From a virus: 64,000 nucleotides of DNA. A program made the position numbers and the translations under genes. Location of the stretch: positions 55,754 to 119,753 of the IMG/VR virus record IMGVR_UViG_3300036820_000004. One strand, given 5' to 3'. The notes below the pieces were generated by a model, which saw nothing but the letters and a program-made list of their open reading frames with translations, did no database searches and had not been told where the DNA came from. Shown piece after piece: positions 2,186 to 16,691 of this stretch. Positions within the stretch are counted from its first letter, which is position 1; the number at the start of each line of letters is the position of its first letter.

Positions 2186-2514
2186 CCAGCGGCGAACTGG
2201 CACGGGGCGCCCTCTGCCTGGACGGTTGCGACCGGATCGACATCCACGCTGGCGGTACTTGCGAGCGGGATGGTCAGCCGCTGGTTCCCGGCCCGCTTGA
2301 CATAATGCACCGTCACCCGGACATCCCGGTGTTCACGCCGATCCGCAATGAGGGCGTCCTCATCTACGACATGGTGCTGCCGAAGTGGCCCGGGCCCGAG
2401 GGCGTTCCCTGGACCCCGATGCGGAATGCCTTCGCCCGCTGGCATTCGGGCAAAATCTGCTACACCCTGCCGTCCGGCAACATAGTCCACGTCAAACCAG
2501 ACTGCCGCTGCTGA
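2182..2514 (+). CDS. hypothetical protein
   Basis: GTGA overlap with upstream stop. Confidence 0.5.
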   Translation: MTSGELARGALCLDGCDRIDIHAGGTCERDGQPLVPGPLDIMHRHPDIPVFTPIRNEGVLIYDMVLPKWPGPEGVPWTPMRNAFARWHSGKICYTLPSGNIVHVKPDCRC

Positions 2515-2535
2515 CGTTCGATGCTGGAGGTGACC

Positions 2536-5500
2536 ATGGCCTCCCCTTCGGCCATCCTCGCAGCGAGCAAATCCATGCCCGGCGGGGGCCGGCCGAACCC
2601 GGGCCCCCAGCAGCAGCAAGGCCCTTACATCGGCCGCATGTCCCCGCTGGTGCAGCAACTCAACAATGAGCATGGATATGCGAATACGTATGGCGGCTTT
2701 TTGCCGAGGCCGCCGCAGACGTTTACCGATGGCGCATTCAGCCCGTTCTCGCCGATCATGCCGGTGCCGATTGATGCGCCACCACCTGGCTTCGAGCGGC
2801 CAGAACCCCGGCGATTCGCCTACGAGGTAGGTTACAACCTTCCTATCGGCGACCCGGGCACTGAGGGCGGCTACAAGCTCGCCCCGTTCTCGGTGCTCAA
2901 GTCGCTGTCGAAGAACTACTCGATCGCGCGGCGCTGCATCCAGCTAGTGAAAAAGGAAGTCTGCGGCCTGGACTGGGACATCACCCTCACCTCCCACGCG
3001 GAGAAGGCCTACCAGGGTGACCATGAGGCGCAGCGGGACTTCGGGGAACGGCGCGCGAAGGCGATGCGGTTTTTCCGCAAGCCGGACCCGAACTACTTCG
3101 ACTTCACGTCGTGGATGTCGGCGATGCTGGAGCAGATCCTCACCATCGACGCCCTGAGCTTGTACCTGTGCCCGAAGAAGGGCACCGGGATGGGCCGGGG
3201 CCTGCTCGGCTCGGACCTGGACGGCTTGTGGTGCATCGACGGGGCGACGATCCGGCCGCTGCTGAACCTGCACGGCGGCATGCCCGTCCCCCCCGCGCCC
3301 GCCTACCAGCAGTACGAGTACGGCGTGCCCCGCGCTGATTTCACGACGGTGATGGCCGGCCTGGACCTGCCCGAGATCGCCGGCGGGGAACGCGGGGCTT
3401 ACCGCGGCGACCAGCTGGTCTACCTGCCGATGTGCCCGTTCCCTGACTCGCCGTACGGGTTCTCCCCGACCGAGCAGGCGCTGGTCCCGATCCTGACCGG
3501 GCTCCGCAAGCAGGGCTACCAGCTGGAGTTCTTCACCGAGGGCACCGTGCCCGCGGTTTATATTTCACCAGGCGATACATCCATGACTCCCAATCAGGTA
3601 AGGGAGCTTCAGGATGCATTGAATGCGGTCGCGAACGACCAGGCATTTCATTGGAAAGTCATTGTTTTGCCGCCTGGAAGCAAAACAATGCCACAAAAGC
3701 CTAATGATATTGTCGACCAGAGCGACGAGTGGATCGCCAACGAGGTCTGCATGATGTACGGCGTCTCCCCCATGGACGTCGGCATCCTCCCCAAGGTGTC
3801 CACCGTGGCCAGCCCGTTCGCGGCGCGGGAAATGGCGCAGGCCAGCCGCACCAACCAGGAGAAGACCGACACCACGCCGCTGCTGAAGTTCATCGCCTCG
3901 ATCCCGAACTTCATCCTCCAGATCGTGTGCGACCAGCCGGACATGGAGTTCTCGTTCGAGGGCATGCGCGAGGTCCAGGACGAGGCGGCGCTGACCGACA
4001 CCTACGTCAAGCAGGCGCAGATCGGTGTCCGGTCGGTCGACGAGTTCCGCGACAAGATCGGCCTGCCGCCGTGGGGCCTGGACGAGACGAGCGGCCCGCT
4101 GGTGTTCACGCCGATGGGACCGATCCCCCTGTCGGAGGCCGTGTCGATCGCGCAGGCGCAGGCACAGGCCAAGGCACTGCCGCCCGGGTCGTCCGGCGCC
4201 AAAAAGCCCGCGGTGACCGCGAAGCCGCTGCCGTCCGGCACCGTCACCGGGCGGCAGCGCGCCCGCGGCGGTGCCGCGCTCACCCCGGCGCACGCCGCGT
4301 CCGAAGGGTTCATGCCCGAACGGTCGGCCAAGAAGCCCTCGGCGGGCCCGGCTCACGCCCAGGCGTCAGTTAAGGCGACGCTGGCCGAACTGGAGGCCCT
4401 GACCCGGCACCTGCGCAAGGGACGCCTGATCTCCACATGGGAAGCCCGGCATCTCGAGCCCCGCGCGCTGTCGCTGATCGCCGAGCAGATGGCGAAGGGC
4501 ATGGACGCCGAGCAGGCCGCGGGCCTGGTGAAGACCATCGTCCTGCCGCCCGCGTCCTACCAGTGGGCAGAGAAGGCCCGGCACGAGCAGTCCCCGCAGG
4601 CTCAGATCCAGGCGCAGCAACTGGCCCTGGAGCAGGAGTACACGCGGCGGATCGAGGCCGCGTTCGCGTCCGCTGCCGCCGCGGCGGCGAAACTCATCGC
4701 CGCGTGGGGCGCGGGCACTCTCGCCGTGACTACCGCGGTCCTCGCCGGGCTCATCGCCGCCGAGTTGCGCAAGGCGCTGACGGCAGCGCTGAGCGGCCTG
4801 TGGGCCGACGCGTGGGCGCACGGCGAAGCCGAAGCAGGCGGATCCGCTGGCGGGGCGCTGGAAGCGTTCCTCGGCACCGTCGGCCGGCAGGTGCAGGAGT
4901 GGGTCAGCGAAACCAACGTCGCCGCCATCATCGCCGACCTGCGGGACCTGGCCGGCCTGAAACGCAAGGCCCTGATCGCCGCGCTGCTGCGACTCCTCAA
5001 GGCAGATGAGCGGGCCGAACTCATCGCTGTCACCGAGCTGATGCGCGCCTGGAACCAGGCCGTTCTCGCCGTCTGGAAGCTGCTCGGGGTCACCTATAAG
5101 GGCTGGCAGACCCGCAACGACGCCAAGGTGTGTTTCCCCGCAGGTACGCCCGTGGCGACGCCGACTGGCGAAGTGCCGATCGAGCGGCTAAAGCCCGGGG
5201 ATCTCGTCATCACGCCAGAGGGGCAGCGTCCCGTCATTGCCACCATGGAGCGCCTGTACACAGGTGGCCTTACGGTGATTCAGGCGGAAGGCCGGACGGT
5301 CACGGCGACTGACAATCACCGGTTCATGACCACCAACGGCTGGCGCAAGGCTGCCGACCTCAAGCCCGGGGACCTCCTCAAGTCGCTTGAGGACGAGTCG
5401 GCAGAGATTGGCAGCGTCGTTCACTTCTCGCTCGCCCAGCCGGATGACGTGCCAGCCGAGGCGGCCAAGTTCCGCATCGCGGATGGCGTCCTTGGCCGCA

Positions 5501-7776
5501 GTCCGCTGGTGCCAGTACTCGCCGTCGGCCTCAATGGCGACGGCGAGACTGGTGAGCGCGAAGTCGATCGTCCAGCGGCTCACGTCAAGTTCGGGCGTGA
5601 ACTCAAGGCGCAGCAGGGTGAGCGCCTGACGGACGCGGAACTCCAGCATGGTCTCGCCCGTAAACTTGCGGTAGCAACTGCGGGAGCAGAACTGCCGATC
5701 GGCAGCGGCAAGGCCCGGCTGCGTGCGGAAGGTGACACTGCACGTCTTGCAGGTGAGGTAGACCGGTGGCCGGCGGCATTCCTCGGAACAGAACCGCCTG
5801 TTGAGATGCTTCTCAGCCCGGAAACGCGTTCCGCAGCGGTCACAGTCGACGTACTTGGTCTCGGCAGTGGTACATGCCCGCGAGCACGTCCTGTAGCGCT
5901 CGGCGGTGGACTGGCTGACGGTGAAGTCCTTGCCGCAGACAATGCAGGTCTTCGTGACCTTGCAACTGTCCTCGTAGCACGCCCGGGAGCAGTGGATCTT
6001 GGTCTTGTTATTGAGCCTGCCGGGGCGGAAGACGATGCCGCAGCCCGGGCAAGTGCGTTCGGCGTGGACGCGCGTAGCGGTGTGATAGCACTCGTTGGAG
6101 CAGAAGACTCGGGGGCTCCGGGTGCGCTGAGCACGCACGACGATTTTGCTGCACTGGGCGCATTGGTAAGTGAATGGCACGGACAGGCTTCCCCCATTCA
6201 AGCCATTATCGTTAATCACCCGCTTACAGTTTACAATGTCAGCGTTGAAACGGAGCCCGTTTACTACGCGAGTCGCTTCCTAGTTCACAATTGCGGGGAA
6301 TGCAAGGCCAACCAGGCGGCCGGCTCCATTCCCGTCGGTGCGCGTTTCCCCAGCGGCGACCTGATGCCGCCAGGACATCCGCGCTGCCGGTGTCATGCGA
6401 CCGCGCCCCCGCCCGGCTGGACACCCCCGGTCACGGCCGCGAACAAGAAGCGCAAGCGGGGCGTGAACCTGGACGGCGAAGTCGTTCTGGCCGACGCCAA
6501 GCCCGGAGACGAGAACCCTGCCGGCGGAGGTGGCCGCACCCTTTACCCGCACCGCCCTGACGGAACCGAGGTACCCGGGGGTGTTCCCGGCGCGTCTGCG
6601 GGAGGGGAGCCGCCGCGCTGGGACGCCTCCACCCCGGAACGCCGCGGCTACGTCAACACCTACGGCGAGGACGACGGCGACTGGCCTGAGCATGTCCGCG
6701 AGGTCGCGCCCAGGCCGGATCAGGACTACCCGGACGGCGGCGGCGAAGACGAGGACCTGTGGCCGGAAGGCGGCCACGGCACCGCCCAGCCCCCGGTGAC
6801 GTCGATCGGCGGCGGACCGCGCGGCCGGGCACCAAACGCGGTGGGCAAGGCCGCCGACGCTGCGGCACAGTTCCTGAAGGACGCGCCGAAGGCCAAGGCC
6901 AGCGCGGTGCGCAAGCTCATGCAGGAGAACTTCCCGCCGGACGCCCTCGCCTGGGTAGGTCGCGCCACATGGGTGGGCCCCGTTGAGATCCCGCTGGAAC
7001 TCATGGACCTGTCCGGCCGGAAGGGGTGGGCGGCGAGCCACCAGCAGGGCCACGTCAAGGCCATCGCCCGCGACCTGAAGGCCGGCCGGAAAGTCAACGA
7101 GATCATCGGCGTGCTGCGCCCGGGTCACAACCACGTCCGCCTTGTTGACGGCAGGCATCGCACCCTGGCCTGCGAGAAGAACAAGATGCCGGTCCGCGGC
7201 TACGTCGGGTTCCTGGACCGCGACTCCGACCTGGAAGCGGCGTATGACACCTACCACCAGCAGCATCACTTCGGGGACAGCCCGAAGAACAAGGCCGCAG
7301 GCTACGACCTGAGCCCGCGGTCGGGCATGATCTCCCTGGACCTGCCGGAAGGCCTCATCCAGCCGGTGCCCGGCGGCGTGGACGACCACCACGTGACGGT
7401 CGCCTACCTCGGCAAGGATGTGGACGATAGGGAGCTGGATATTGTGCTGGCGCAGGCACGCACCGCGGCCCGGCATGCTCCGGGCCCGCTGGCCGGGATG
7501 CTGTCCGGCATCGGCTCATTCCCGCCGTCCGATGGCAGTGACGGCATGGTGCCCGCGTTCGTCCCGGCCCGCATCCCCGGCGCGGAGAAGCTCCGCGCCG
7601 ACCTTGAGCACCTGTCGGCCAGCGAGCACAAGGACTGGGCGCCGCACGTCACCCTCGCCTACCTGCAGCCGGGTGAGCCGCTCCCGGCGCCGCATCCCCC
7701 GGTGCCGGTGACGTTCACCCACCTGTCAGTGCACCGGGGCGATGAGGTGTACCGGTTCCCGCTGGGTGGCGAGTGA
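2536..7776 (+). CDS. portal protein fused to MuF head-morphogenesis domain (intein-containing), ParB-like domain and C-terminal 2H phosphoesterase
   Basis: Portal motifs (IDGATIRP, YGFSPTEQAL, FFTEGTVP); MuF motifs (ERAELIAVTE, KGWQT...C..C...PPGHPRCRC); LVDGRHR; two HVT motifs (HHVTVAYLG, PHVTLAYL). GGAGG before ATG 2536; frame open from 2521. Confidence 0.85.
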   Translation: MASPSAILAASKSMPGGGRPNPGPQQQQGPYIGRMSPLVQQLNNEHGYANTYGGFLPRPPQTFTDGAFSPFSPIMPVPIDAPPPGFERPEPRRFAYEVGYNLPIGDPGTEGGYKLAPFSVLKSLSKNYSIARRCIQLVKKEVCGLDWDITLTSHAEKAYQGDHEAQRDFGERRAKAMRFFRKPDPNYFDFTSWMSAMLEQILTIDALSLYLCPKKGTGMGRGLLGSDLDGLWCIDGATIRPLLNLHGGMPVPPAPAYQQYEYGVPRADFTTVMAGLDLPEIAGGERGAYRGDQLVYLPMCPFPDSPYGFSPTEQALVPILTGLRKQGYQLEFFTEGTVPAVYISPGDTSMTPNQVRELQDALNAVANDQAFHWKVIVLPPGSKTMPQKPNDIVDQSDEWIANEVCMMYGVSPMDVGILPKVSTVASPFAAREMAQASRTNQEKTDTTPLLKFIASIPNFILQIVCDQPDMEFSFEGMREVQDEAALTDTYVKQAQIGVRSVDEFRDKIGLPPWGLDETSGPLVFTPMGPIPLSEAVSIAQAQAQAKALPPGSSGAKKPAVTAKPLPSGTVTGRQRARGGAALTPAHAASEGFMPERSAKKPSAGPAHAQASVKATLAELEALTRHLRKGRLISTWEARHLEPRALSLIAEQMAKGMDAEQAAGLVKTIVLPPASYQWAEKARHEQSPQAQIQAQQLALEQEYTRRIEAAFASAAAAAAKLIAAWGAGTLAVTTAVLAGLIAAELRKALTAALSGLWADAWAHGEAEAGGSAGGALEAFLGTVGRQVQEWVSETNVAAIIADLRDLAGLKRKALIAALLRLLKADERAELIAVTELMRAWNQAVLAVWKLLGVTYKGWQTRNDAKVCFPAGTPVATPTGEVPIERLKPGDLVITPEGQRPVIATMERLYTGGLTVIQAEGRTVTATDNHRFMTTNGWRKAADLKPGDLLKSLEDESAEIGSVVHFSLAQPDDVPAEAAKFRIADGVLGRSPLVPVLAVGLNGDGETGEREVDRPAAHVKFGRELKAQQGERLTDAELQHGLARKLAVATAGAELPIGSGKARLRAEGDTARLAGEVDRWPAAFLGTEPPVEMLLSPETRSAAVTVDVLGLGSGTCPRARPVALGGGLADGEVLAADNAGLRDLATVLVARPGAVDLGLVIEPAGAEDDAAARASAFGVDARSGVIALVGAEDSGAPGALSTHDDFAALGALVSEWHGQASPIQAIIVNHPLTVYNVSVETEPVYYASRFLVHNCGECKANQAAGSIPVGARFPSGDLMPPGHPRCRCHATAPPPGWTPPVTAANKKRKRGVNLDGEVVLADAKPGDENPAGGGGRTLYPHRPDGTEVPGGVPGASAGGEPPRWDASTPERRGYVNTYGEDDGDWPEHVREVAPRPDQDYPDGGGEDEDLWPEGGHGTAQPPVTSIGGGPRGRAPNAVGKAADAAAQFLKDAPKAKASAVRKLMQENFPPDALAWVGRATWVGPVEIPLELMDLSGRKGWAASHQQGHVKAIARDLKAGRKVNEIIGVLRPGHNHVRLVDGRHRTLACEKNKMPVRGYVGFLDRDSDLEAAYDTYHQQHHFGDSPKNKAAGYDLSPRSGMISLDLPEGLIQPVPGGVDDHHVTVAYLGKDVDDRELDIVLAQARTAARHAPGPLAGMLSGIGSFPPSDGSDGMVPAFVPARIPGAEKLRADLEHLSASEHKDWAPHVTLAYLQPGEPLPAPHPPVPVTFTHLSVHRGDEVYRFPLGGE
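5131..6291 (+). mobile_element. intein (387 aa) inserted just before the first Cys of the MuF CxxC motif
   Basis: Block A CFPAGTPV, block B TATDNHRF, block F VYNVSVE, block G LVHN followed by Cys +1; removal gives NDAKV-CGECKAN. Confidence 0.93.
5188..6180 (-). CDS. zinc-finger-repeat DUF559/Vsr-like endonuclease encoded antisense within the intein
   Basis: Five CxxC...CSxxC repeats, then IDFA...AIEADGEYWH...KDAIRDAEL...GWHVIRLGE; GTG 6180 preceded by GGGGGAAG; frame open from 6219. Confidence 0.85.
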   Translation of the reverse strand: MPFTYQCAQCSKIVVRAQRTRSPRVFCSNECYHTATRVHAERTCPGCGIVFRPGRLNNKTKIHCSRACYEDSCKVTKTCIVCGKDFTVSQSTAERYRTCSRACTTAETKYVDCDRCGTRFRAEKHLNRRFCSEECRRPPVYLTCKTCSVTFRTQPGLAAADRQFCSRSCYRKFTGETMLEFRVRQALTLLRLEFTPELDVSRWTIDFALTSLAVAIEADGEYWHQRTAAKDAIRDAELGRLGWHVIRLGEREVNDAANLCRLVLKRLEEVPGLEVGSLAPAVGGHEPVIVSRRDRPAFRLNHRKATCVQALHGGNDGTLPLWRDDEIPGL

Positions 7777-13943: not shown

Positions 13944-16691
13944 GTGACAGCAGTTCTGGACGGCACCATCCCGTCCCTGAATGACGGCGTGACCGCGCCG
14001 CCGCCCGACCAGGTCACCAAGGCGCTCTACGGAGAAGCCGCACGGCCCGACCTGGGCACCAGCCAGTACTCGAACACCGCCGAAGCCCTCGTCGGCAAGA
14101 TGAGCCACCTCGTCAAGGGCGCCGGCTTCGCCGGCGAGGGCGGCAACACGCCGCTGACCAACCAGGCCGACATCGGCCGCCGCGCGTTCGAGGCGACGAT
14201 CGACCTGCGTTCCGCCACCCGCCAGGGCATCTACGCCAAGTCGACGGTGGTCAAGTCCATGTCCCAGGATTTCCTGGGCCGGTTCGGCGCGCTGCGCCTG
14301 GCCCTGGAAACCCCGTCCATCCAGGAGTTCATCGGCACCGTCGCCAGCCCGGACATCGCCCGGTCATTCACGGCCGGAAATTTGGGGATAGGGTCGACGT
14401 ACGGTTTGACCCCTTTCAACCTGTTGGCTCCCTCCCGCCTTAACTAGATGGGGCCGTCGCGCCGTGAGGCGCGGATGACAACTCCGCGAACTGCTGGAAC
14501 ACCCGAGCCACCTGCGTGCGCCACAACGTGAGGCGAAAGCCTGAGCGTGACGGCCGAAAAGCTACGCAGCAGGGGCAATCAGCAGCCAAGCCCGCCTGCC
14601 GTCGGCGACGGGAAGGTCCAGAGAGCATGCACGGAGCGCCTCCCTGAGGCGATGATGTGCTCCGAGCCTGCGTGAGAGCGCAGGAGGCGACCGGAAACGA
14701 GCCGCCCCTCTGTTGAAACGGACAGAGAGTAACAATTTACGCATCTATCCCATCTATACCGTCAACTAGGCGGCTCCGGAGGGCGACCTCCGGATGACAA
14801 GCGCACTGCCCGGGGAACCCCGCCCGTATACTGACCTGAAGCCGTCGCTCGCGCCCTCCTCATACAGGGGTACGATCGGCGGTTTGCTGTGTCTGGGGAA
14901 TCCCGGTCCGCGGCGATGCCCGCCGCGGTGTAGAGACTGTACGTGCGCGCTCTGCCACGGACGCGGCCACGGGGCATTACGTGGCCACGGCCGCAGAGCA
15001 TGAGACAGTCCGGACCTGCGTGGATGGCAAACCGCAGGAGGCGCACGGAAACGATGCGCCCGCTCGCCTCTTCGGCGAGAGGTAACAGAATCGCTACCGC
15101 AACAAGTTCGCCCGGCCGCCCGGCCAGGGCGCGTCCCTGATCGAGCGTCTCGCGGTCGGCATCTCCGGTTCACAGACCGGCGGCCAGTCCGTGCTGGACT
15201 TCTCGATCCCTGAGATGGTGCAAACCGGCGGGTCGTTCGGCCAGTGGCCGCTCAACCTGCCCCCGGCCGTCAGCGAGCAGTTTGTGACACTGAACGTGCC
15301 GTATCGTTTCTTCGGCGTCACGGAGCAGCTCAGCTTCCTCGCCCAGTGGGCAGGGCAGGGGTTCGAGGATCTGTCCGCGCTCGCCAACCTGATCCTTCTG
15401 CAGGCCGCCATGCAAGCGGAGGAGTTCCAGCTGATCGCGGGATCGTCGGCGAACCTGGCCATCCCGGCCGCGCCAACGTGCACGGTCCGCAACGCCCAGT
15501 CCAACGAGACCGCGCTGTCCACTTCGGTCGTCAACGTCCAGGTGGCTGCGGCGAACTACTTCGGCCGCACGGCTTCCAGCGGGTCCACGTCGGTGACGGT
15601 GGGCGCGGGCCAGGTCGTGGACGTGACCATCTCGCCTGTGACCGGGGCGATGAACTACCAGATCTTCGGCCTTTCCTCGGTCCCGACCACGTACCTGCTC
15701 GCGACCTGCGGGGGCGTGAAGTACACGCTGCAGGGCGCGCTGCCCGCGGCGGTCACCACCAACCCGACGGCTGACACCGGCACCGGGGCCGGAACCCGGA
15801 TGGAAGGCGTCATCCCGACCCTGACCGGCCTGTCGGCGCAGGCGGCCATCTACCCGAACGGCAACCCGATCGTCTGGCAGGGCGGCTACGTCAACCAGAA
15901 CGTCGGCCAGCACCTCAACTACAACGTCATCTACACCGCGCTGAAGGCGCTGTTCGACTCGCCGTCGATCTCGCCGGGGGCGTTCAAGGCCGACCCGGCG
16001 GAGATCATCTCCTCGGGTTCGGACATCGCGAACCTGTCCCAGGATGTGATCTCGCAGGGTTCGGGCACCAACTTCGAGCTGTTCATCAAGCAGGGCGAAG
16101 TCGGGAACGTCACCGTCGGTGCGGCCGTCAGCCAGTTCCAGAACCCGGTCACGAGGTCCATCCTGAAGACCGTGGTCCACCCGTTCTACCTGCAAGGCAA
16201 CGCGGAACTGCTGTCCTACCAGCTCCCCCAGAGCTGGACGAACGTGGCCAACGCGTGGGAAGTGTCCTGCGTGCAGGACTATGTGACGCTCAACTAACTA
16301 GGGCGCGCGGCAGGGTGACCTGCCGTGGAAAACGGCACTGTTCGGGGAACCCCTCCAATCACCGGGGAATCCCGAGCTTCAGCGATGCCCGCTGGAGTGT
16401 AGAGACTGTACGTGCCGGATCTGTGCGACGGGATCAGCGACGGGGCATTACGCCGCTGGCACCGCAGATCATGAGACAGGCCGATCTGCACCGATGGAAA
16501 AGGTGCAGAGGCCGGCAGAAATGACCGGCCCGCTCACCATCTGGTGAGAGGTAACAGAATGCGCACTCCCCGTGATCGATGTGACCTACAGGTACATCCT
16601 CCTGCTCATGGCTGCCCTGGTGGCCCATGCTCCGATGTATTCTGCCCACCTGGGCGGTTTGCAGCAGTCTGATGTGACTCCGTACAGTTAG
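13944..16691 (+). CDS. major capsid protein, four exons: 13944-14440, 14742-14762, 15094-16290, 16562-16691 (614 aa spliced)
   Basis: Spliced length 1845 nt and stop-free; junctions read LLAPSRL-IYPIYTV-YRNKFARP and VQDYVTL-ALPVIDVTYRY; follows the protease. Confidence 0.85.
14441..14741 (+). ncRNA. group I intron 1 (301 nt, no ORF)
   Basis: Exon ends in U, intron ends in G; IGS UAGAUG-GGGC pairs with 3' exon CAUCUA (P10) and 5' exon GCCU (P1); P AACUGCUGGAA, Q AAUCAGCAG, P3 CUCCG/CGGAG, P7 GAGCA/UGCUC. Confidence 0.92.
14763..15093 (+). ncRNA. group I intron 2 (331 nt, no ORF)
   Basis: IGS UAG-GCGG pairs with CUA and CCGU; P3 GCGCAC/GUGCGC; R GUAGAGACUG, S GACAGUCC; terminal G. Confidence 0.92.
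16291..16561 (+). ncRNA. group I intron 3 (271 nt, no ORF)
   Basis: P1 GGCG/CGCU; P3 CGGCAC/GUGCCG; R GUAGAGACUG, S GACAGGCC (one P7 mismatch); same 3' GAGAGGUAACAGAAU as intron 2; frame restored. Confidence 0.88.

What the first reader, a model, noticed from the sequence alone, without database searches (positions are those of the whole stretch)
5131..6291. Intein whose putative homing endonuclease is encoded on the antisense strand
Seen: a complete intein (CFPAGT..., TATDNH, VYNVSV, VHN/C) sits in the MuF domain. Where inteins normally carry an in-frame nuclease (about 5395-6200), the sense frame is an open but motif-less ~270-aa stretch. The opposite strand, in codon register, encodes five CxxC/CSxxC zinc fingers plus a DUF559/Vsr-like nuclease, with its own RBS and an AT-rich upstream segment. 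Its tail also runs antisense across the intein N-terminal splicing region to 5188. Known: intein endonucleases are normally in-frame and released by splicing. Inference: a separately expressed nuclease gene shelters in an intein, which splices out its antisense junk translation, and the nuclease probably drives homing. I am not aware of this architecture being described. Caveat: in-register antisense frames are often open in GC-rich DNA.
Basis: partly seen in the sequence, partly recalled or inferred. Interest (0 to 1): 0.95.

Follow-up and report, generated by a model that had tools for sequence, protein, structure and literature searches.

The report
Intein with antisense homing-endonuclease gene
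A self-splicing protein insert in a phage head-assembly gene carries, on the opposite DNA strand, a real gene for the DNA-cutting enzyme that probably spreads it; the layout is genuine and kept by selection, but a 2025 preprint already described it.

Summary
Window 5131-6291 (+) is a class-1 intein in a portal-MuF fusion gene. All 12 closest host relatives lack exactly these 387 residues. The minus ORF 5188-6219 encodes five C4 zinc fingers plus an EDxHD/Vsr-like nuclease. It passes the DUF559 cutoff and matches I-Bth0305I (3R3P) by sequence and by fold.

In the insert, the GC3 signature sits on the minus frame. AlphaFold gives a confident Hint fold with a disordered sense insert, and a confident nuclease.

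In this GC-rich window alone, double openness is not significant (P about 0.27). Comparative data settle it. In 65 of 89 related loci (GC 0.32-0.73) the nuclease gene lies antisense, in exact codon register, inside an intein. Across 48 distinct copies, about 232 TTA/CTA/TCA codons are expected and 0 observed.

The novelty claim fails. Gosselin, Arsenault and Gogarten (bioRxiv 10.1101/2025.01.02.630785) report anti-sense VSR-like HENs in full inteins of actinophage minor capsid proteins. This scan had also noted the layout on other DNA, in 149 notes.

Verdict: a well-supported new member of a known kind. Expression, splicing and cleavage remain untested.

The parts
2521..7776 (+). Host gene: portal - MuF-like - C-terminal 2H/2',5' RNA ligase-like polyprotein (1751 aa including the intein)
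   Evidence: ORF. Pfam Phage_portal 2.9e-16 and phrog_2662 portal 2.1e-53, whose match ends at residue 871, next to the intein start. Relatives carry PF04233 Phage_Mu_F on record.
5131..6291 (+). Complete class-1 intein (387 aa): Cys1, block B T60..H63, terminal H386-N387, followed by Cys+1 at 6292-6294
   Evidence: All 12 closest host relatives have a gap of exactly these 387 columns.
5131..5457 (+). Intein N-terminal Hint subdomain (residues 1-109)
   Evidence: AF2 pLDDT 93-98 for residues 1-100 and 59 for residues 101-110, all beta strands. Hint_2 hit at residues 1-41.
5458..6204 (+). Sense-frame insert (intein residues 110-358): mirror translation of the nuclease gene, predicted to be disordered
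   Evidence: AF2 pLDDT 28-42 with a 34-sequence alignment. No family hit. GC by sense codon position 0.82/0.54/0.56 over 5395-6200, against 0.66/0.49/0.87 in the N-extein.
6205..6291 (+). Intein C-terminal Hint part (residues 359-387, blocks F/G, ...VYNVSVE...FLVHN)
   Evidence: AF2 pLDDT 87-96. V367, V385, H386 and N387 are invariant in alignment A2.
5188..6219 (-). Maximal nuclease ORF (GTG at 6219, 343 aa, stop 5190-5188). The probable true start is GTG 6180-6178 (residue 14), giving 330 aa
   Evidence: Homologues begin MPFTYEC, aligned to residue 14-15. AF2 pLDDT is below 50 for residues 1-11.
6190..6195 (-). Shine-Dalgarno-like GGGGGA, 9 nt upstream of GTG 6180
   Evidence: Read from the sequence. 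Function not tested.
5674..6162 (-). Array of five C4 (CxxC...CxxxC) zinc-finger-like units (nuclease residues 20-182), presumed DNA-binding module
   Evidence: Cys columns invariant or nearly so in 19 homologues. pLDDT 76-93. phrog_1271 1.8e-16 on residues 122-193.
5377..5667 (-). EDxHD / Vsr-like (DUF559) nuclease domain (residues about 185-281)
   Evidence: PF04480 37.5 bits above its 20.6 cutoff. PDB 3R3P I-Bth0305I E 2.4e-14. Foldseek 3r3p TM 0.79-0.81, rmsd 2.4. E210, D219, E230, D232 and H237 invariant.
5347..5457 (.). About 37 codons where both strands encode confidently folded protein (intein residues 73-109 against nuclease residues 291-255)
   Evidence: Inference from overlaying the two AF2 models using the register r+s=364.
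5191..5346 (-). C-terminal tail of the nuclease ORF (residues 292-343), running antisense over intein blocks A-B; probably read-through
   Evidence: pLDDT 34-44. In relatives with GC below 0.6 the stop lies at intein residue 55-89, median 72. In this window it lies at about residue 20.

Best explanation
This is a contiguous, presumably splicing-competent intein inserted at the conserved ...D-x-[KR]-V | C-x-x-C... site of the MuF (head-morphogenesis) part of a phage portal-MuF polyprotein.

At the position where canonical inteins carry an in-frame endonuclease domain, the DNA instead holds an independent gene on the opposite strand, in exact codon register. That gene encodes a homing endonuclease of the EDxHD/Vsr-like family (I-Bth0305I type), with an N-terminal array of five C4 zinc fingers as its DNA-binding module.

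In this register, stops on one strand correspond only to TTA, CTA or TCA on the other. The nuclease gene can therefore keep the host frame open purely through synonymous codon choice. The host ribosome reads through about 250 codons of mirror sequence, which form a disordered loop between the two halves of the Hint fold. Protein splicing then removes the intein and loop together, restoring MuF.

The nuclease is made from its own antisense transcript. It is inferred to cut intein-less MuF alleles near the GCCAAGGTG|TGCGGGGAA junction, so that repair copies intein plus nuclease gene together (homing).

Shown here: the anatomy, homology, folds, the selection signatures in relatives, and the absence of the intein from close alleles. 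Inferred: transcription and translation of the minus gene, splicing, cleavage specificity and homing.
For: Intein:
- Hint_2 scores 45.7 bits, above its 28.4 cutoff. Cys1, TxxH and HN|C are present.
- AF2 gives a Hint fold with pLDDT 93-98 for residues 1-100 and 87-96 for residues 361-387.
- All 12 closest host relatives (43-76% identity over residues 600-870) lack exactly the 387 residues.

Nuclease gene:
- DUF559 is above its cutoff, and phrog_1271 scores 1.8e-16.
- 43 homologues at E<=1e-3, up to 79% identity, in the 90%-clustered database.
- 3509 representative clusters at E<=1e-3 and 107 at E<=1e-30.
- 3R3P at E 2.4e-14, and best by Foldseek with TM 0.79-0.81.
- AF2 pLDDT 76-94 over residues 12-291.

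Which frame codes:
- GC peaks at the minus-frame third position in the insert (0.82). The exteins have 0.87 at the sense third position.
- In 580 of 580 pairs of embedded relatives the nuclease-frame identity exceeds the sense-frame identity.
- In 575 of 580 pairs, substitutions are more frequent at nuclease codon position 3 than at position 1.

Selection for the open sense frame:
- 65 of 89 related loci have the nuclease gene antisense in register 0 within a long ORF.
- 62 of those 65 show both splice-junction motifs.
- Among 53 distinct embedded copies, 48 have at least 150 background codons. For those, 232.1 TTA/CTA/TCA codons are expected and 0 observed. For the 13 with GC below 0.5, 137.8 are expected and 0 observed.
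- 22 of the 24 non-embedded copies carry 2-20 such codons in the match.

Host identity:
- All 10 sampled host ORFs have Hint or intein hits.
- 5 of 10 have Phage_Mu_F above its cutoff, ending at the intein.
- 5 of 10 have an N-terminal portal domain.
Against: - No expression evidence: no RNA run is listed for this DNA.
- No sigma-70-like promoter was found upstream of the minus gene (0 sites). The start is GTG with only a moderate SD-like motif.
- In this window alone, openness of both frames is unremarkable. 1.32 forbidden codons are expected (P(0)=0.27), and other antisense open runs of 266-411 codons occur in the same gene.
- Pfam Phage_Mu_F did not hit the window's own protein at E<=0.1. 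The MuF assignment rests on relatives.
- The nuclease ORF has a 52-residue low-confidence tail.
- The loci counted are not phylogenetically independent. They were found with patterns taken from this nuclease family, so the 65 of 89 is not a prevalence estimate.
- I did not verify residue by residue that the invariant E/D/H residues correspond to the published EDxHD catalytic set.
Confidence: 0.85

Rival explanations
1. Relic: the intein still splices, but the antisense nuclease gene is no longer expressed or active. The element would now be inherited vertically, and the open minus frame would persist only because the DNA is GC-rich and the insertion is recent.
For: In this window the minus frame would stay open by chance with P about 0.27. 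No promoter-like site was found. The stop has moved about 50 codons beyond the usual position, giving a disordered tail. The preprint notes that several VSR-like HEN inteins look vertically inherited (section 15).
Against: All Cys ligands and the invariant E210, D219, E230, D232 and H237 are intact. The model is confident over residues 12-291. GC3 and substitution patterns show coding selection on the minus frame across the family. All 12 closest host alleles lack the intein, which fits a recent gain better than old vertical descent.
Confidence: 0.1
2. Mirror-ORF artefact: the minus ORF is not a gene at all, only the usual open in-register antisense frame of GC-rich coding DNA. The sense insert would be the real, if unusual, intein domain.
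For: Long in-register antisense open runs (141-411 codons) occur throughout this host gene.
Against: The minus frame passes the curated DUF559 cutoff. It matches a solved homing endonuclease by sequence and by fold. It has thousands of relatives, many of which stand outside any intein. It carries the GC3 signature. The sense insert has no hits and is predicted to be disordered. Sense-frame identity is lower than nuclease-frame identity in 580 of 580 pairs.
Confidence: 0.02
3. Safe-harbour model: the nuclease is a free-standing-type HEG that targets the MuF region for its own spread or to exclude competing phages. The intein would be only a tolerant landing pad, so nuclease and intein need not move as one unit, and the cleavage site need not be the intein insertion site.
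For: 12 of 30 non-embedded relatives lie convergently 28-155 nt beyond an intein-less MuF C-x-x-C...H-P-x-C-x-C motif. One locus, L047, is a fractured form. Related nucleases split a methylase gene without any intein in mycobacteriophages. So the nuclease family is mobile independently of inteins.
Against: 62 of 65 embedded copies sit in the same kind of intein at the same MuF site. The window's intein and nuclease gene are absent together from all 12 closest alleles. If a cut near the insertion site is repaired from an intein-bearing template, intein and nuclease gene are copied together. In practice this model therefore merges with homing.
Confidence: 0.15

Closest known systems
Inteins with an anti-sense VSR-like homing endonuclease in actinobacteriophages (Gosselin, Arsenault & Gogarten, bioRxiv 10.1101/2025.01.02.630785; I read the abstract, section 15 in full, and passages of sections 3, 6, 8, 12, 14, 24 and 28)
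   Same: A contiguous intein. A Vsr-like/EDxHD nuclease encoded on the antisense strand of the region where an in-frame HEN would sit. A sense insert without recognisable structure. Host proteins that include the minor capsid (MuF-type, IPR006528). Best PDB relatives 3R3P and Vsr.
   Different: This copy comes from a soil metagenome virus, in a portal-MuF fusion. I show a five-fold C4 zinc-finger array as the N-terminal module. [quoted passage not shown] The preprint calls the layout rare and its text has no hit for 'codon usage'. Here it recurs in 65 of 89 related loci from GC 0.32 to 0.73, with complete avoidance of TTA/CTA/TCA.
Fractured genes: split inteins with a free-standing Vsr-like HEG between the halves (Dassa et al. 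2009, PMC2677866; abstract and passages read)
   Same: The same nuclease superfamily associated with inteins in phage genes. A nuclease made as a separate protein. The model that a free-standing HEG invaded an intein.
   Different: There the host gene and intein are broken into two genes that trans-splice. Here the sense frame is continuous and the nuclease gene is hidden in register on the other strand. One relative, L047, does have the fractured form with an antisense nuclease gene.
I-Bth0305I, prototype of the EDxHD homing endonuclease family (Taylor et al. 2011, PMC3239194; abstract and passages read; PDB 3R3P)
   Same: A C-terminal Vsr-like catalytic domain (E 2.4e-14; TM 0.79-0.81). An N-terminal DNA-binding region followed by a C-terminal nuclease.
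   Different: I-Bth0305I lies in a group I intron of recA and uses NUMOD/HTH motifs. This protein lies antisense in an intein and uses zinc fingers.
Antisense LAGLIDADG HENs in inteins (Synechocystis DnaX, Chloroflexus SpoVR-like; Gorbalenya 1998 and Gogarten 2002, as cited by the preprint; I did not read these papers)
   Same: A nuclease gene on the antisense strand of a contiguous intein.
   Different: A different nuclease family.
Canonical bifunctional inteins such as PI-SceI (recalled, not from a call)
   Same: A Hint splicing domain interrupted at the same topological position by homing machinery.
   Different: There the endonuclease is an in-frame domain of the intein polypeptide and is released by splicing.

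Membership tests
Intein (class 1, Hint fold) | N-terminal Cys/Ser, block B TxxH, C-terminal His-Asn followed by Cys/Ser/Thr +1 | tested here: met
   C1, T60-D-N-H63 and H386-N387|C.
Intein (class 1, Hint fold) | Hint domain by profile and by fold | tested here: met
   Hint_2 at 45.7 bits, above its 28.4 cutoff. AF2 pLDDT 93-98 for residues 1-100 and 87-96 for residues 361-387.
Intein (class 1, Hint fold) | Precise in-frame insertion that is absent from homologous alleles | tested here: met
   All 12 closest relatives lack exactly 387 columns at ...DAKV|CxxC....
Intein (class 1, Hint fold) | Protein splicing activity | not testable with these tools
   Needs expression of the precursor.
EDxHD / Vsr-like homing endonucleases (I-Bth0305I family) | Vsr-like catalytic domain by sequence and by structure | tested here: met
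   PF04480 at 37.5 bits, above its 20.6 cutoff. 3R3P E 2.4e-14. Foldseek rank 1-2, TM 0.79-0.81. Vsr 1CW0 at E 0.011.
EDxHD / Vsr-like homing endonucleases (I-Bth0305I family) | Conserved catalytic E, D, H, D residues | tested here: inconclusive
   E210, D219, E230, D232 and H237 are invariant, and D244 is at least 90% conserved, in 19 sequences. I did not map them one-to-one to the published motif.
EDxHD / Vsr-like homing endonucleases (I-Bth0305I family) | N-terminal NUMOD/HTH DNA-binding region | tested here: not met
   The N-terminal region is five C4 zinc-finger-like units. The domain order is the same but the module differs.
EDxHD / Vsr-like homing endonucleases (I-Bth0305I family) | Site-specific cleavage of the element-free allele | not testable with these tools
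   Needs an enzyme assay.
Anti-sense VSR-like HEN inteins (Gosselin et al. 2025 preprint) | Contiguous intein with an open sense frame across the HEN region | tested here: met
   A single 1751-aa ORF.
Anti-sense VSR-like HEN inteins (Gosselin et al. 2025 preprint) | Vsr-like HEN ORF on the antisense strand between the splicing blocks | tested here: met
   The structured core is 5347-6186, and it overlaps the N-terminal Hint subdomain by about 37 codons.
Anti-sense VSR-like HEN inteins (Gosselin et al. 2025 preprint) | Sense-frame insert without recognisable structure | tested here: met
   pLDDT about 30 over residues 110-358. No family hits.
Anti-sense VSR-like HEN inteins (Gosselin et al. 2025 preprint) | Host is a minor capsid / MuF-type protein (one of four host types reported) | tested here: met
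   Relatives of the N-extein carry PF04233 on record. Related loci have Phage_Mu_F ending at the intein. The window's own protein gave no PF04233 hit at E<=0.1.
Fractured genes (split intein + free-standing HEG) | Host gene and intein broken into two separately translated genes | tested here: not met
   The sense frame is continuous from 2521 to 7776.

The most novel reading that the evidence does not exclude
The zinc-finger/EDxHD nuclease family may cycle between three states around a single target, the MuF D-x-R-V|C-x-x-C site.
- State 1: free-standing, convergent to an intein-less MuF gene and within about 30-160 nt of it.
- State 2: 'fractured', lying between split intein halves.
- State 3: hidden antisense inside a contiguous intein.

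On this reading the exact codon-for-codon register is a rule imposed by the genetic code, because it is the register in which both frames can be kept open by synonymous choice alone. The layout would be common across very diverse phages rather than a rare actinophage oddity. It would also include about 37 codons of true dual coding, in which Hint beta-strands and nuclease helices are read from opposite strands.
Probability: 0.55. Interest if true: 0.5.

Novelty: new member of a known kind. Interest (0 to 1): 0.35.

Why it matters
This is a clean natural case of long antisense overlapping coding. About 330 codons of a real enzyme gene are read against an open, translated host frame, and selection is visible at the level of three forbidden codons. 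It shows that a homing endonuclease can pair with an intein without being part of its polypeptide, which bears on how inteins acquired endonucleases (the 'splicing first' view).

It also has a practical side for annotation. These nuclease genes are easily missed or called on the wrong strand, as with gene 55 of phage Camster, and the intein's middle is easily misread as an unknown domain. The disordered 250-residue loop tolerated by the Hint fold, and a modular zinc-finger/EDxHD nuclease, could interest protein engineers. Because the layout is already in a preprint, the value here is confirmation, breadth and the codon-level test, not discovery.

Tried and rejected
**Searches that gave little or nothing**
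- DNA-level search of 4800-6600 against 50,697 phage records found no match.
- tblastn of the nuclease against phages found only 18 records. Seventeen are mycobacteriophages, where the gene splits a methylase without an intein, and one is a Microcystis phage. These are not the same layout.
- Promoter and terminator scan: 0 promoter-like sites. The one terminator-like site is no more than the shuffles give.
- Expression: no RNA holder is listed for this DNA. The only holder is a DNA run that may be the source of the contig, so I did not use read laying.
- Rfam at gathering threshold found nothing in the whole window.

**Tests that were underpowered or needed repair**
- NG86 dN/dS on pairs of 70-99.5% nucleotide identity gave only 5 pairs, none of them embedded copies (nuclease-frame omega 0.27-0.42, sense-frame 1.23-1.45). 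I therefore used position-specific differences and frame identities on 580 embedded pairs instead.
- My first automatic intein-boundary calls mis-set some junctions (L045, L063, L068, L073, L076, L077, L090, L091). I recounted with junction motifs. L076 shows no intein and stays unexplained.

**Readings I rejected**
- The long nuclease tail as a functional extension: its pLDDT is below 50, and the stop lies further upstream in lower-GC relatives.

**Rows I left out**
- Of the 47 genome loci, I analysed only the 9 best (L083-L091). The rest matched only the nuclease domain.
- Of the 70 metagenome loci, I analysed L131-L138. L132 and L138 were dropped as near-duplicates.

**Limits on the literature claim**
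The statement that only the preprint describes the layout rests on searches of the held library. They may show whether its VSR-like HENs have the same zinc-finger array and which phages carry them.

Complex prediction, the protein-atlas search and read laying.
Full report
**What is there**

The window is the last 64 kb of a 119,753-base IMG/VR virus record, estimated 91% complete, from a soil metagenome. The + strand ORF 2521-7776 encodes a 1751-aa polyprotein. It has an N-terminal portal domain (Pfam Phage_portal 2.9e-16). The phrog_2662 portal match (2.1e-53) ends at residue 871, next to the intein start. A weak C-terminal 2',5' RNA ligase-like match is also present.

Residues 871-1257 (window 5131-6291) are an intein. 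They start CFPAGT, include block B T-A-T-D-N-H, and end ...VYNVSVETEPVYYASRFLVHN followed by Cys. Hint_2 scores 45.7 bits against a cutoff of 28.4.

The minus ORF 5188-6219 (343 aa) lies in exact codon register with the sense frame, so nuclease residue r is the mirror of intein residue 364-r. It encodes five CxxC...CxxxC units followed by a DUF559 domain (37.5 bits against a cutoff of 20.6). MTES_1575 and Vsr are weaker hits. PHROGs places it with 'HNH endonuclease' family phrog_1271 at 1.8e-16.

**Which frame is the gene**

In the exteins, GC is highest at the sense third position: 0.87 in the N-extein and 0.865 in the C-extein. Inside 5395-6200 it is highest at the sense first position (0.82), which is the third position of the minus frame, and sense position 3 drops to 0.56.

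The minus-frame protein has many relatives:
- 43 relatives up to 79% identity in the 90%-clustered database.
- 3509 representative clusters at E<=1e-3 and 107 at E<=1e-30 in the exhaustive search.
- Invariant Cys ligands and invariant E210, D219, E230, D232 and H237 in a 19-sequence alignment.
- A profile of that alignment hits the solved catalytic domain of the homing endonuclease I-Bth0305I (3R3P) at E 2.4e-14.

The AlphaFold model is confident over residues 12-291 (pLDDT 76-94 by blocks). It falls below 50 at residues 1-11 and 292-343. Its best Foldseek matches in the PDB are 3R3P chains (TM 0.79-0.81 on the target, rmsd 2.4 over 94 columns), ahead of Vsr itself.

The sense-frame intein was folded with an alignment of 34 related inteins. 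It gives a Hint fold with pLDDT 93-98 for residues 1-100 and 87-96 for residues 361-387. Residues 110-358 have pLDDT 28-42 and no strands.

The caveat is right for this window alone. From the codon usage of the exteins, only 1.32 TTA/CTA/TCA codons are expected in the nuclease gene (Poisson P(0)=0.27). The in-register antisense frame of the same host gene is open for 141-411 codons elsewhere. ORF length therefore proves nothing here.

**Comparative evidence**

- Genome contigs: 47 loci, of which I analysed the 9 with near full-length matches.
- Metagenome contigs: 70 loci, of which I analysed the 8 best.

In 65 of these 89 viral and genome loci, the strand opposite the nuclease gene is open in register 0 across the whole gene and well beyond it. 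This includes contigs of GC 0.32-0.36, where the open stretch is 1977-3567 nt. 62 of the 65 show both an x-C-[FLIV] N-junction and a [VI]-H-N-[CST] C-junction.

In register 0, a stop on one strand is TTA, CTA or TCA on the other. Among 53 distinct embedded nuclease sequences, 48 have at least 150 host background codons. Across those 48, the host genes' own Leu and Ser codon usage predicts 232.1 such codons, and none is observed. For the 13 with GC below 0.5, 137.8 are predicted and none observed (without deduplication, 330.5 against 0 in 60 loci). 22 of the 24 non-embedded copies carry 2-20 of these codons in the match.

Among 34 distinct embedded sequences plus the window (580 pairs with at least 180 aligned codons):
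- Nuclease-frame identity exceeds sense-frame identity in 580 of 580 pairs (medians 0.405 against 0.223).
- Differences are more frequent at nuclease position 3 than at position 1 in 575 of 580 pairs.
- For the window against its nearest DNA relative L003, differences per position are 0.31, 0.26 and 0.46.

These loci are related to each other and were found with this nuclease family as bait. The numbers show selection, not prevalence.

**Host and mobility**

All ten diverse host ORFs have Hint or intein hits. Five have Phage_Mu_F above its cutoff, ending at profile position 78 of 112, exactly where the intein starts (a sixth, L003, is below cutoff). Five have an N-terminal portal domain. The insertion site is the conserved ...D-x-[RK]-[VT] | C-x-x-C... 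of MuF.

For the window's own host protein, the 12 closest relatives are 43-76% identical over residues 600-870 and 1169-1488 aa long. None has a Hint domain on record. All 12 have a gap of exactly the 387 intein columns, between ...RNDAKV and CxxC. That confirms the boundaries and shows the sporadic distribution expected of a recently acquired, mobile intein.

**Details of the nuclease gene**

Homologues start MPFTYEC, which aligns with residue 14-15 of the maximal ORF. Residue 14 is a GTG (6180-6178), preceded 9 nt upstream by GGGGGA (6195-6190). Residues 1-11 are low-confidence. I therefore take 6180 as the likely start, giving 330 aa. It lies opposite intein residue 350, just before the C-terminal Hint strands. 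GC falls to 0.55 in 6100-6299, but no consensus promoter was found.

In relatives with GC below 0.6, the nuclease stop lies opposite intein residue 55-89 (median 72, n=40), at or just after block B. In this window it lies opposite residue about 20, as in some other high-GC loci. Together with the low pLDDT, this makes the last 52 residues look like read-through over a stretch that simply lacks TTA/CTA/TCA on the sense strand.

The confidently folded parts do overlap. Nuclease residues 255-291 mirror intein residues 109-73 (window 5347-5457), so about 37 codons appear to be true dual coding. This is an inference from overlaying the two models.

**Other states of the same nuclease family**

Among 30 non-embedded loci, 12 have an intein-less MuF motif (C-x-x-C ... 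H-P-x-C-x-C) on the opposite strand, 28-155 nt beyond the 3' end of the nuclease match. By eye, L004 and L089 show variant motifs in the same arrangement. This is a free-standing, convergent nuclease gene parked beside the same target gene.

L047 (GC 0.43) has an intact intein N-part and a ...VLVHN|CGMC C-part on the sense strand. Between them lies an antisense nuclease gene with 15 TTA/TCA codons, so the sense frame is broken. This is a fractured arrangement in the sense of Dassa et al. 2009.

In cluster-P mycobacteriophages, a related nuclease gene (25-26% identity) splits a DNA methylase gene without any intein. In Camster, the annotated gene 55 is the mirror ORF on the wrong strand.

**Comparison with what is known**

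Dassa et al. 2009 (PMC2677866; abstract and passages) described Vsr-like HEGs between split intein halves. Taylor et al. 2011 (PMC3239194; passages) characterised I-Bth0305I and named the EDxHD family, which has NUMOD/HTH N-terminal motifs.

Gosselin, Arsenault and Gogarten (bioRxiv 10.1101/2025.01.02.630785, version dated 2025-10-20; abstract, section 15 in full and passages of other sections) report four non-canonical architectures among 63 actinophage inteins. One is the 'anti-sense VSR-like HEN' in full inteins. Their hosts include minor capsid proteins, the sense inserts are unstructured, and the best matches are 3R3P and 1CW0. They cite antisense LAGLIDADG HENs from 1998 and 2002. So the architecture is described.

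That text calls these architectures rare and has no hit for 'codon usage'. I could not see its supplements. Five full-text searches found no other description.

This scan itself holds 149 earlier notes of the layout in at least 122 genomes. Those listed describe an HTH plus Vsr nuclease. The zinc-finger form was matched only to this same stretch. I found the preprint before opening those notes. One note (e1-3422237) says the layout was not found in the literature, which my reading contradicts.

**Verdict**

Transcription, splicing, cleavage and homing remain inferred. The novelty claim fails, so this is a new, well-supported member of a recently described kind. Its DNA-binding module is a zinc-finger array. 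The comparative data add breadth, a codon-level test of selection and a link to free-standing and fractured forms.

Noticed in passing
L005, L030, L035-L037, L043, L055, L074, L084, L088, L135, L136 (also L004 and L089 by eye): Non-embedded members of the same nuclease family lie convergently just downstream of intein-less MuF genes, 28-155 nt beyond the C-x-x-C...H-P-x-C-x-C motif. This suggests free-standing HEGs parked next to the same target site.
   Followed up: partly
L047:3560-5614: A 'fractured' form. The intein N-part and the ...VLVHN|CGMC C-part sit on one strand, separated by stops. On the other strand is a nuclease gene with 15 TTA/TCA codons (GC 0.43).
   Followed up: partly
L002 (Mycobacterium phage Camster MW055902) 2411-3295; L001 (KilKor) 2405-3265: A related zinc-finger + Vsr-like nuclease gene splits the DNA methylase gene without an intein. 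It lies on the strand opposite to all annotated genes. Camster gene 55 'hypothetical protein' (locus 2420-3208, minus strand) appears to be its mirror ORF.
   Followed up: partly
window 2521-7776: The in-register antisense frame of the host gene is open for runs of 141, 206, 266, 273, 363, 411, 69 and 15 codons. Long mirror ORFs are the norm in this GC-rich phage and should not be taken as genes without other evidence.
   Followed up: yes
window 7390-7689 (host residues 1624-1723): The C-terminus of the polyprotein has a weak 2',5' RNA ligase / 2H phosphoesterase match (PF13563, 24.9 bits, below its cutoff of 27; phrog_2659 RNA ligase 3.6e-06). Several relatives are labelled 2'-5' RNA ligase or carry NUDIX domains on record.
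   Followed up: no
L004:505-1488, L131-L133: By eye, the antisense reading of the C-terminal tails of some free-standing nucleases still resembles a decayed intein N-domain (for example ...VAVDEH where block B TxxH would be). These copies may have escaped from inteins. I ran no statistical test.
   Followed up: no
window 1-64000 (including 13944-16691): Rfam at gathering threshold finds no RNA family anywhere in the window. Another first-reader note on this genome proposes three group I introns in the major capsid gene at 13944-16691, and no Rfam intron model reaches threshold there.
   Followed up: partly
L069:1742-6865 (minus strand): One host ORF (1708 aa) fuses a portal domain, the intein-bearing segment and a ClpP-like protease domain (PF00574, 1.8e-28) in a single frame.
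   Followed up: no
L076:1272-2381: The nuclease gene has no TTA/CTA/TCA and sits in a 370-aa open mirror frame, but I recognised no intein junction motifs (GC 0.68). This may be chance openness or a decayed element.
   Followed up: no
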